A DNA stretch of 64,000 bases from Escherichia coli (GCF_024502345.1 NZ_JALDNN010000001.1), one strand, 5' to 3'. Shown: positions 43,797 to 43,984, numbered from the stretch's first letter. The notes: generated by a model not told the origin, from the sequence alone. Numbers and translations are program-made.

Positions 43797-43984
43797 ATTT
43801 AGATAAATAATATAAATTAGCTAATTAAGATAGTCTACAGTTTTTACCACCTGAATGATGGGTGTGAATTGTTTCTTTTTCATTACTGATATGGGGTACA
43901 CAGCGAAGACGTAATGAATGGAGGCGAGCTTGCATCTGCAAGCCTCTTCCCCTAAGCTGGCACAAAATATAGAGATTCAACCAA

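What the first reader, a model, noticed from the sequence alone, without database searches (positions are those of the whole stretch)
43928..43943. Perfect 7-bp inverted repeat upstream of the thiM leader
GCTTGCA-TC-TGCAAGC (43928..43943) sits ~45 bp upstream of the riboswitch aptamer. The 2-nt spacer is too short for an RNA hairpin, so it is more likely a dimeric protein-binding site or part of the thiM promoter, possibly belonging to the islet boundary.
Basis: seen in the sequence. Interest (0 to 1): 0.2.

Follow-up and report, generated by a model that had tools for sequence, protein, structure and literature searches.

The report
Palindrome inside alternative thiM promoter
The small palindrome is real and lies in the -35 region of a thiM promoter that E. 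coli K-12 lacks but O157:H7 and many other enteric bacteria share, so it is mostly an ordinary promoter element, though it sits inside an odd mirror copy of part of the thiamine riboswitch.

Summary
GCTTGCA-TC-TGCAAGC is present at 43928-43943. Alone it is at chance level: 3 such repeats in the window against 4.3 in shuffles.

It is conserved, however. GCTTG(C/T)-N4-(G/A)CAAG(C/T) sits at the same distance from thiM in about 10% of E. coli genomes and in at least ten other enterobacterial genera, and nowhere else in 804 kb.

K-12 lacks it. K-12 homology starts only at 43978, and K-12 uses a different promoter, TTTACA-17-TACCAT.

Published Cappable-seq data for O157:H7 EDL933 place thiM start sites 148, 137 and 201 nt before the ATG. 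EDL933 differs from the window here by one base. These sites map to window 43964, 43975 and 43911.

The 148 site fits -10 TAAGCT (43953-58) and -35 TTGCAT (43930-35), 17 bp apart. TTGCAT is the palindrome's left arm.

Across 51 distinct variants the left arm is nearly invariant. The right arm is only moderately conserved and is lost in 14.

So the palindrome is mainly the -35 region and upstream spacer of the thiM promoter. A separate operator or hairpin role is unproven.

Unexpectedly, the promoter module is an inverted, diverged copy of the riboswitch's 3' half. Transcripts from the 201 site are predicted to misfold the aptamer.

The parts
43928..43943 (.). The palindrome GCTTGCA-TC-TGCAAGC. 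The conserved core is GCTTGC-N4-GCAAGC. It spans -36..-21 relative to the main thiM start site.
   Evidence: presence; conservation
43930..43935 (+). -35 hexamer TTGCAT of thiM promoter P1, which is the left arm of the palindrome. CTTG is invariant in 93 distinct sequences.
   Evidence: 17-bp spacing to TAAGCT read; column information 1.4-2.0 bits; the same TTGnnn-17-TAnnCT spacing in species without a right arm
43953..43958 (+). -10 hexamer TAAGCT of P1. Relatives carry TAATCT, TACGCT, TAACCT or TATGCT; T1, A2 and T6 are constant.
   Evidence: the published start site lies 6 nt downstream
43964..43964 (+). P1 transcription start (A), 148 nt before the thiM ATG
   Evidence: Cappable-seq of EDL933, PMC10469882 Supplementary Table S5; mapped through EDL933 coordinates and sequence identity
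43963..43968 (+). -10-like CAAAAT for the second start site, P2
   Evidence: 7 nt upstream of the 137-nt start site; inference
43975..43975 (+). P2 transcription start (A), 137 nt before the ATG
43911..43911 (+). P3 transcription start (G), 201 nt before the ATG and 17 nt upstream of the palindrome. The transcript carries the palindrome at +18..+33.
   Evidence: In EDL933 the site is 7 nt downstream of CACAGT; the window has CACAGC at 43899-43904, so P3 may be weaker here.
43946..43962 (+). CTTCCCCTAAGCTGGCA, the reverse complement of the aptamer 3' strand with one mismatch and one extra base. It also forms the downstream spacer, -10 hexamer and discriminator of P1.
   Evidence: I3; score 12 vs 5.3 +/- 1.1 in shuffles, 0 of 200
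44047..44063 (+). Aptamer 3' strand TGCCAGCGTAGGGAAGT (invariant in all species examined), the partner of 43946-43962
43900..43927 (+). Degenerate inverted copy of the expression platform (partner 44064-44094, which includes the anti-SD GCTTCTTCAC). It is much clearer in relatives.
   Evidence: window alignment; 25-nt perfect in L081, 24 in L118, 19 in L089, 17 in L080
43981..44077 (+). TPP riboswitch aptamer of thiM
   Evidence: RF00059, 71.2 bits, E 6e-13
44112..44900 (+). thiM coding sequence
43978..43978 (.). Left end of the homology with K-12-type E. coli (CAACCAAACGAC...). Everything to the left, promoter and palindrome included, differs from K-12.
43539..43778 (-). Divergent HTH-like (Pfam HTH_73) gene, the last gene of the 2.27-kb islet between rcnR and thiM

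Best explanation
The palindrome is the -35 region and upstream spacer of the principal sigma-70 promoter of thiM (P1) in strains that carry a non-K-12 version of the thiM upstream region.

Shown:
- The left arm holds TTGCAT, 17 bp upstream of TAAGCT.
- In O157:H7 EDL933, which is identical here except for one base at 43904, a capped 5' end maps 148 nt before the ATG. That is window 43964, 6 nt after the -10 hexamer.
- The leader length is almost the same as in K-12 (148 vs 150 nt), although the promoter DNA is different.

Inferred:
- RNA polymerase with sigma-70 recognises the invariant cTTGc of the left arm.
- The right arm lies in the spacer (-27..-21) and is not needed for promoter function. 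Fourteen of 51 natural variants have lost it while keeping the left arm and the -10 hexamer.
- The symmetry is most likely inherited from the history of this module, which is an inverted, diverged copy of the riboswitch's 3' half. It has at most a weak secondary role.
For: - TSS distances for thiM in EDL933 are 137, 148 and 201 nt; the K-12 distance is 150 nt (PMC10469882 Table S5). Coordinates and bases were checked, and identity to the window.
- The K-12 site at 150 nt lies 7 nt after TACCAT of TTTACA-17-TACCAT. This validates the distance convention.
- The same TTGnnn-17-TAnnCT spacing occurs in many genera, including species without the right arm (L070, L084, L082, L026, L019).
- Column information is 1.4-2.0 bits for the left arm, 0.75-1.17 bits for the right arm and 0.5-1.0 bits for the centre.
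- Sequence downstream of the -10 hexamer is variable. Inspection suggests a different small leader hairpin in each lineage, as expected just after a start site.
- The pattern is found only upstream of thiM.
- Upstream genes differ in every genus examined, so the module belongs to thiM and not to an island.
Against: - By consensus the promoter is weak (6 of 12 hexamer matches). The simple scan found no + strand promoter in 43400-44200.
- The relative strengths of the three start sites, and the conditions in which each is used, could not be retrieved. The held supplement is truncated.
- The start sites were mapped in EDL933, not in this strain.
- The right arm is more conserved than random spacer DNA: 23 of 51 variants keep all six pairs, and one lineage shows a C:G to T:A double change. 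An added function of the symmetry is therefore not excluded.
Confidence: 0.62

Rival explanations
1. Operator for a dimeric DNA-binding protein. The two half-sites GCTTGC/GCAAGC, with an uncontacted 4-bp centre, span -36..-21 of P1. A bound dimer would occlude the -35 hexamer and repress thiM independently of the riboswitch.
For: - Conserved arms with a freely varying centre (ATCT, AAGA, AACA, ATCA, GCCA, ACCA, GTCA...) are the pattern expected for a dimer site.
- The position over the -35 hexamer is typical of repressors (general knowledge).
- One lineage changed both innermost positions symmetrically, C:G to T:A.
Against: - No candidate regulator exists. The adjacent HTH_73 gene is absent within 4 kb of thiM in the other genera that keep the palindrome.
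- The right half-site carries only about 1 bit per position, like the neighbouring spacer. It is mutated or lost in many lineages while the left arm stays invariant. That asymmetry is unexpected for a symmetric dimer site.
- From memory, the sequence resembles no E. coli regulator consensus that I could recall (CytR, NsrR, LacI-family, sigma-54). I did not run a motif database search, because none is available among the tools.
Confidence: 0.13
2. RNA hairpin in a longer leader. Transcripts from the upstream start site P3 (43911), or read-through from the variable island, contain GCUUGC-AUCU-GCAAGC. The hairpin sits at the junction of a long-range pairing between the upstream mirror sequences and the aptamer 3' strand and anti-SD segment. 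Such transcripts could not form the TPP aptamer.
For: - A capped 5' end lies 201 nt before the ATG in EDL933.
- The hairpin folds at -8.8 kcal/mol (z -2.2), and the extended form at -16.5 kcal/mol (z -2.8).
- The MFE of the P3 transcript contains the hairpin plus CUUCCCCUAAGCUGGCA paired to UGCCAGCGUAGGGAAG. RNAalifold on 19 sequences predicts the same hairpin and an ACUUCCC:GGGAAGU helix.
- Single changes in the right arm lean towards G.U-compatible ones on the + strand: 40 G.U cells, against 16 A.C cells that would be G.U on the minus strand.
- The upstream copy and the expression platform co-vary in some lineages. L080 and L089 differ at one base that is mirrored in both copies.
Against: - The main start site, P1, lies downstream of the palindrome, so most thiM mRNA should lack it.
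- The P3 -10 hexamer has its key T only in O157:H7 (CACAGT); the window has CACAGC.
- The whole-transcript fold is not exceptional (z -1.75).
- Both strands of the long-range helix are invariant, so covariation cannot be tested.
- The hairpin shows only one compensatory pair, probably a single event, and 53 mismatch cells.
- In half of the loci the platform-complementary part is at chance level.
- There is no Rfam match.
Confidence: 0.13
3. Chance palindrome with no relation to thiM expression, or a boundary or att-site repeat of the inserted islet.
For: - Alone it is at chance frequency.
- It lies in DNA absent from K-12, next to a variable islet.
- A related HTH_73 gene sits beside a tyrosine recombinase gene on plasmid pX14-3-NDM.
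Against: - It is conserved at a fixed distance from thiM in at least ten genera whose upstream genes are all different.
- It is never found elsewhere in 804 kb.
- No integrase homologue was found in the window or in any fetched thiM locus, and the plasmid homology stops at 43840, well before the palindrome.
- It coincides with a mapped promoter.
Confidence: 0.04
4. Intrinsic terminator (either strand) that insulates thiM from the upstream genes.
For: It is a G+C-rich stem of 6-7 bp.
Against: - No T-run follows the stem on either strand: CTCTTCCCC on the + strand and TCGCCTCC on the minus strand.
- The terminator scan did not flag it.
Confidence: 0.02

Closest known systems
thiMp of E. coli K-12 (RegulonDB start site 150 nt upstream of thiM)
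   Same: - It does the same job at the same place.
- It gives a leader of nearly the same length (150 vs 148 nt) in front of the same TPP riboswitch.
- The two forms appear distantly homologous. In other genera the K-12-type promoter keeps remnants of the same module...TTTGCCGTTTACAAGACTTCCCGCTGGCAT....
   Different: - The hexamers differ: TTTACA-17-TACCAT in K-12 against TTGCAT-17-TAAGCT here.
- In the K-12 type the -35 hexamer aligns with the loop and right arm of the palindrome. The promoter has in effect slid about 8 bp, with a 4-nt indel.
- K-12 has no palindrome, and no complement to the aptamer (score 6, shuffle level).
Palindromic operators that overlap a -35 hexamer (classical repressor sites)
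   Same: An inverted repeat with a variable centre that covers -36..-21 of a mapped promoter.
   Different: There is no known or nearby cognate protein. The two half-sites are unequally conserved, and the right one is dispensable in nature.
Alternative-pairing elements of riboswitch leaders (anti-aptamer or anti-sequestor strands)
   Same: An upstream strand is complementary to the aptamer's 3' strand, and in relatives to the anti-SD segment. It would compete with aptamer folding if transcribed.
   Different: It lies upstream of the main start site, inside the promoter. Only minor or read-through transcripts would contain it. No such element is described for thiM, to my knowledge and from memory; the text search targeted thiM start sites and promoters, not such an element.
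5'-terminal stabilising stem-loops of bacterial mRNAs
   Same: It is a short G+C-rich hairpin close to the 5' end of the P3 transcript (+18..+33).
   Different: It is not at the extreme 5' end. The main transcript starts downstream of it. By inspection, the P1-type and K-12-type leaders have their own different small hairpins just after the start site.

Membership tests
sigma-70 promoter (-35 element) | A TTGACA-like hexamer whose TTG is conserved | tested here: met
   TTGCAT at 43930-35. CTTG is invariant in 93 distinct homologous sequences.
sigma-70 promoter (-35 element) | A 16-18 bp spacer to a TAnnnT -10 hexamer | tested here: met
   17 bp to TAAGCT. The same 17-bp spacing is seen in all the type-B species I counted by hand. 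T1, A2 and T6 of the -10 hexamer are constant. For the metagenome hits part of this was fixed by the search pattern; the genome loci are unbiased.
sigma-70 promoter (-35 element) | A primary transcript 5' end 5-9 nt downstream of the -10 hexamer | tested here: met
   Published Cappable-seq data for EDL933 give 148 nt from the ATG, which is 6 nt after TAAGCT. This was measured in a near-identical strain, not in this one.
sigma-70 promoter (-35 element) | Loss of activity when the hexamer is mutated | not testable with these tools
   Requires reporter assays.
Operator of a dimeric transcription factor | Two inverted half-sites at a fixed spacing, both conserved | tested here: inconclusive
   The spacing is fixed. 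The left half carries 1.4-2.0 bits and the right half about 1 bit. 23 of 51 variants are perfect and 14 of 51 lack the right half.
Operator of a dimeric transcription factor | An identified cognate DNA-binding protein | not testable with these tools
   The adjacent HTH_73 gene is excluded as a general partner. No motif library is available.
Structured RNA element (hairpin) | It is transcribed | tested here: inconclusive
   Only the 201-nt start site includes it. The main 148-nt and 137-nt sites do not.
Structured RNA element (hairpin) | Base pairs supported by compensatory changes | tested here: inconclusive
   - One pair of six shows C:G to T:A (4 of 23 sequences, one clade).
- 92.8% of cells are paired, against 90.1% in shuffles.
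- In the larger set there are 213 Watson-Crick, 40 G.U and 53 mismatch cells.
Structured RNA element (hairpin) | A match to a curated RNA family | tested here: not met
   Only the TPP aptamer matched. Nothing matched at 43900-43980, even at E up to 10.
Intrinsic terminator | A G+C-rich hairpin followed by a U-tract | tested here: not met
   No T-run on either strand, and the scan did not flag it.
Mobile-element end or att site | The repeat recurs at the other island end or at other insertion sites, with an adjacent recombinase | tested here: not met
   One copy per locus, always at thiM. No integrase homologue was found in the window or in any fetched thiM locus. Neighbouring genes are unrelated in other genera.

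The most novel reading that the evidence does not exclude
The palindrome is the junction hairpin of an 'anti-riboswitch'. The roughly 70-bp module just upstream of the thiM leader is a mirror copy of the riboswitch's 3' half: the aptamer 3' strand, the linker and the anti-SD segment. In some species it also copies the SD and the first thiM codons.

mRNAs that start upstream of the module, at P3 or by read-through from the variable island, would pair the module with those segments. The palindrome would be extruded as a third helix, and the aptamer could not form. Promoter choice would then decide whether thiMD mRNA is TPP-controlled or TPP-blind.

Species-specific perfect matches of 17-25 nt, and a mirrored single-base difference between two Pantoea genomes, would reflect selection for this pairing rather than gene conversion.
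Probability: 0.12. Interest if true: 0.7.

Novelty: new member of a known kind. Interest (0 to 1): 0.33.

Why it matters
thiM carries one of the most studied translational riboswitches, but almost all work uses K-12.

About one E. coli genome in ten, including O157:H7, O55:H7 and the B lineage, drives thiM from a different promoter. So do many other enteric genera. In E. coli that promoter abuts a variable islet.

For annotation, the practical points are these:
- The palindrome should be read as promoter DNA, not as a terminator, an att site or a proven operator.
- The boundary with K-12 homology lies inside the thiM leader, at 43978.

The wider point is the mirror copy of the riboswitch's 3' half inside this promoter. 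If it is functional in RNA, it would be a new way of bypassing a riboswitch. If it is only a relic, it shows how a promoter can arise from an inverted duplication of the leader it serves.

Tried and rejected
- **Terminator reading.** There is no T-run on either strand, and the scan did not flag it.
- **Rfam at permissive threshold.** It found only the TPP aptamer.
- **HTH_73 as the binding protein.** tblastn found HTH_73 only in the E. coli islets and one plasmid, and in none of the 80 other thiM loci.
- **Integrase or att-site reading.** The plasmid pX14-3-NDM homology ends at 43840, and no integrase homologue was found in the window or in any fetched thiM locus.
- **Small ORF starting at ATGGGGTAC (43891).** Its length and stop codon are not conserved between variants (by eye). 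Rejected.
- **Sigma-54 reading of CTGGCAC-N5.** There is no GC at the -12 position (by eye). Rejected.
- **Known regulator consensus sequences.** I compared CytR, NsrR, the LacI family and RcnR from memory only. None fits, and the variable centre argues against NsrR-like and CytR-like readings. This is not a database test.
- **Divergent minus-strand promoter using the right arm (TTGCAG) as its -35 hexamer.** I found no acceptable -10 hexamer 16-18 bp away (by eye).
- **Per-condition presence and strength of the three EDL933 start sites.** The held copies of the supplementary tables are truncated before 2.947 Mb.
- **K-12 start-site coordinates in PMC2760140.** Only primer and gene lists were retrievable. 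The distance of 150 nt was taken from PMC10469882 instead.
- **Self versus non-self test of concerted evolution between the upstream copy and the platform.** It gave only a modest signal: mean longest run 8.4 vs 7.3 nt, with a few striking lineages.

Full report
**1. The observation**

The sequence GCTTGCA-TC-TGCAAGC is at 43928-43943. The TPP aptamer is at 43981-44077 (RF00059, 71.2 bits), and thiM starts at 44112.

Taken alone, the palindrome is not remarkable. The window holds 3 perfect 7-bp inverted repeats with a 2-nt spacer. Dinucleotide-preserving shuffles give 4.3 +/- 1.7.

**2. Context**

Megablast against 5,426 complete E. coli genomes shows that nearly all of them match the query only from base 199, which is window 43978. 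About 460 cover the whole 351-bp query.

- K-12 has rcnR directly upstream of thiM. Its 85 bp between the rcnR stop codon and CAACCAAACGAC are unrelated to the window. They contain TTTACA-17-TACCAT and a small GCGAT-TTATC-ATCGC hairpin, and no palindrome.
- The window instead carries a 2.27-kb islet with three annotated genes, next to rcnR on its upstream side. The last gene is a divergent HTH-like gene (Pfam HTH_73, E 2e-30).
- A more sensitive search finds this type of thiM upstream region in 565 of 5,426 genomes, in several diverged versions of 76-100% identity. They include O157:H7, O55:H7 and E. coli B.

**3. Conservation in E. coli**

Alignment of the diverged E. coli versions shows that the arms are kept while the centre changes.
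- The centre ATCT becomes AAGA in K207-3, EC96 and B.
- The last C becomes T in O55:H7.
- In strain GF3-3 an unrelated upstream sequence is joined exactly at TTGCAT, so the left arm's TTGCA is preserved.

**4. Conservation beyond E. coli**

I fetched thiM loci from 80 species.
- All the Escherichia species representatives returned have the K-12-type promoter.
- GCTTGC-N4-GCAAGC occurs 176-189 nt from the ATG (the window value is 184) in Pseudescherichia, Cedecea, Pluralibacter, Pantoea and strains labelled Enterobacter and Citrobacter. Variants of it occur in Trabulsiella, Buttiauxella and other Pantoea.
- The pattern occurs 20 times in 804 kb, always once per locus and always at this place. 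I estimate about 0.4 chance occurrences.
- The genes upstream of the module differ in every genus. HTH_73 is absent from all of these loci.

The roughly 100-bp module therefore belongs to thiM. It sits next to a hotspot for variable DNA. It is neither island cargo nor an island end.

**5. What it is: the promoter**

Read as a promoter, the module gives TTGCAT (43930-35), a 17-bp spacer and TAAGCT (43953-58).

The same TTGnnn-17-TAnnCT arrangement is present in species that have no right arm, including Klebsiella, Raoultella, other Pantoea, Phytobacter and Kosakonia.

Sequence downstream of the -10 hexamer is variable. By inspection, different lineages carry different small hairpins there, as does the K-12 type. 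This is what one expects just after a start site.

Experimental support comes from a Cappable-seq study of O157:H7 EDL933 (PMC10469882). Its Supplementary Table S5 lists start-site distances for thiM of 150 nt in K-12 (RegulonDB) and 137, 148 and 201 nt in EDL933.
- The O157:H7 sequence compared (strain Balcarce_14.2) differs from the window in 43860-44120 at one base only, 43904 C to T, and the EDL933 sequence read carries the same T.
- I located thiM in NZ_CP008957.1, with its ATG at 2,947,141 on the minus strand, and read the bases.
- The 148-nt site is an A, equal to window 43964, 6 nt after TAAGCT.
- The 137-nt site is an A, equal to 43975, 7 nt after CAAAAT.
- The 201-nt site is a G, equal to 43911, 7 nt after CACAGT. 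The window has CACAGC there.
- The K-12 site at 150 nt falls 7 nt after TACCAT. The distance convention therefore holds.

The palindrome spans -36..-21 of P1, and its left arm is the -35 hexamer.

The simple consensus scan did not report this promoter, because it matches only 6 of 12 hexamer positions.

**6. Does the symmetry matter?**

I enlarged the sample with a metagenome scan anchored on the -10 region and the aptamer. This anchor is unbiased with respect to the palindrome.

The combined set has 93 distinct 65-mers and 51 distinct 16-mers.

| Region | Information per position |
|---|---|
| Left arm | 1.38, 1.83, 2.0, 2.0, 2.0, 1.39 bits |
| Centre (4 nt) | 0.5-1.0 bits |
| Right arm | 0.75-1.17 bits |

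The right arm is about as conserved as neighbouring spacer positions.

- Of the 51 variants, 23 keep 6 of 6 pairs and 37 keep at least 5 of 6. Fourteen have no right arm but keep the left arm and the -10 hexamer.
- On a 23-sequence alignment, 92.8% of cells pair and one pair shows a double change, C:G to T:A, in four sequences of one clade.
- Single changes in the right arm lean towards G.U-compatible ones on the + strand: 40 G.U cells, against 16 A.C cells that would be G.U on the minus strand. There are also many plain mismatches (53 cells).

My conclusion is that the strong constraint is on the left arm, as a -35 element. The symmetry is under weak constraint at most.

As RNA the sequence would fold well as a 6-bp stem with a tetraloop (-8.8 kcal/mol; -16.5 kcal/mol for an extended form). 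Only the 201-nt transcript would contain it.

**7. An unexpected larger pattern**

The 17 nt after the palindrome, CTTCCCCTAAGCTGGCA at 43946-62, are the reverse complement of the invariant aptamer 3' strand TGCCAGCGTAGGGAAGT at 44047-63. There is one mismatch and one extra base (I3).
- The score is far above shuffles in the great majority of type-B loci. Weaker remnants (ACTTCCCGCTGGCA) lie in the spacer of K-12-type promoters of other genera, but not in Escherichia.

Extending the comparison, the reverse complement of the DNA upstream of the palindrome aligns with the expression platform, including the anti-SD GCTTCTTCAC.
- In Enterobacter sp. ENT03 the alignment reaches the thiM ATG and first codons.
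- Perfect complementary runs reach 25 nt in Trabulsiella, 24 nt in a metagenome contig (including the SD), and 19 and 17 nt in two Pantoea genomes. Those two Pantoea genomes differ at one base, and the difference is mirrored in both copies.
- In about half of the loci this part is at chance level. The self versus non-self contrast is modest.

The promoter module is therefore an inverted, diverged partial copy of the riboswitch's 3' half. The palindrome is an insertion between the two mirrored segments.

The -10 hexamer TAAGCT corresponds to the complement of the conserved aptamer motif AGCGUA.

The K-12-type and window-type promoters look like two decayed versions of this one module. They use hexamers about 8 bp apart (by eye).

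**8. Mechanism and its rivals**

Best supported (0.62): the palindrome is promoter DNA for P1, and its symmetry is inherited from the module's history.

Rivals:
- A repressor operator over the -35 hexamer (0.13). The pattern of conserved arms with a free centre fits. However, no partner protein is known, and the right half is dispensable in nature.
- An RNA hairpin at a three-way junction in P3 or read-through transcripts (0.13). The upstream mirror pairs with the aptamer 3' strand in the MFE of the 43911-44130 RNA and in the RNAalifold consensus. However, both strands of that helix are invariant, so there is no covariation test. P1 transcripts exclude the element, and the fold z-score is only -1.75.
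- Island boundary or chance, and terminator: effectively excluded.

**9. Comparison with what is known**

The closest known object is thiMp of K-12. It has the same function and nearly the same leader length, but different hexamers, and it lacks both the palindrome and the mirror of the aptamer.

The start sites are in published supplementary data. There they were scored as 'same as K-12, difference -2'. I found no paper among the results of the text search, which targeted thiM start sites, promoters and the riboswitch, that describes the different promoter, the palindrome or the mirror arrangement; this is not an exhaustive literature check.

**10. Verdict**

The interpretation 'part of the thiM promoter' is supported. 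'Protein-binding site' remains open and less likely. 'Islet boundary' is only loosely right.

As a palindrome it is ordinary. The surrounding mirror copy of the riboswitch is the part that deserves an experiment.

Noticed in passing
window 43900-43962 versus 44047-44094; L081 3779-4008; L089, L080, L118, L047: The DNA just upstream of the thiM leader is an inverted, diverged copy of the riboswitch's 3' half: the aptamer 3' strand, the linker and the anti-SD. In some species it also copies the SD and the first thiM codons. Species-specific perfect matches reach 25 nt.
   Followed up: partly
window 43891-43900; L003 about 4925-4965; L004 about 3050-3075: The motif ATGGGGTACA (GGGGTCA in Enterobacter- and Citrobacter-type modules) occurs in 1-3 direct copies with a period of about 12 nt just upstream of the palindrome. 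It overlaps the -10-like hexamer of the 201-nt start site. Its function is unknown.
   Followed up: no
window 43805-43837: An A+T-rich near-palindrome, AAATTAGCTAATTAAG (perfect as AAATTAGCTAATTT in K207-3-type strains), overlaps the predicted minus-strand promoter of the HTH_73 gene (TAGACT-17-TATATT). It is a likely autoregulatory operator. The same 60 bp are 93% identical on plasmid pX14-3-NDM, where a tyrosine recombinase gene ends there.
   Followed up: no
window 41707-43977: A 2.27-kb islet replaces 85 bp of K-12 sequence between the rcnR stop codon and the thiM leader. It holds two small genes of unknown function, about 1 kb without an annotated gene (about 42500-43530), and the HTH_73 gene. 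Other E. coli carry different cargo here (DUF6998, a NACHT protein, IS elements). The thiM upstream side is a hotspot for variable DNA in many genera.
   Followed up: partly
window 43978-43986 versus L003 5047-5060: The window-type leader is a hybrid. It has the type-B promoter but the K-12-like CAACCAAACGAC before P1. K207-3-type strains and most other genera have ...CATGACTC, which gives a 5-bp P1 (UGACU/AGUCA) instead of the 4 bp plus a C.A mismatch of K-12 and the window.
   Followed up: no
loci L017-L090, 60-90 nt upstream of the aptamer: K-12-type and window-type thiM promoters look homologous. TTTGC-CGTT-TACAAG-ACTTCCCG-CTGGCA aligns with CTTGC-AACA-GCAAGC-CACTTCCCCTAAGCTGGCA. The active hexamers are shifted by about 8 bp and there is a 4-nt indel, an apparent case of promoter sliding.
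   Followed up: partly
L075 about 143, L088 about 2575, L054, L057, L060: Several genera have a second TPP-riboswitch-like GACTCGGGGTGC motif 1-4 kb upstream of thiM, presumably for another thiamine gene.
   Followed up: no
window 43848-43874: A terminator-like site on the + strand (CACCTGAATGATGGGTG followed by TGAATTGTTT) lies between the HTH_73 promoter and the thiM promoter module. It is the only such site in 43400-44200, against 0.7 expected.
   Followed up: no
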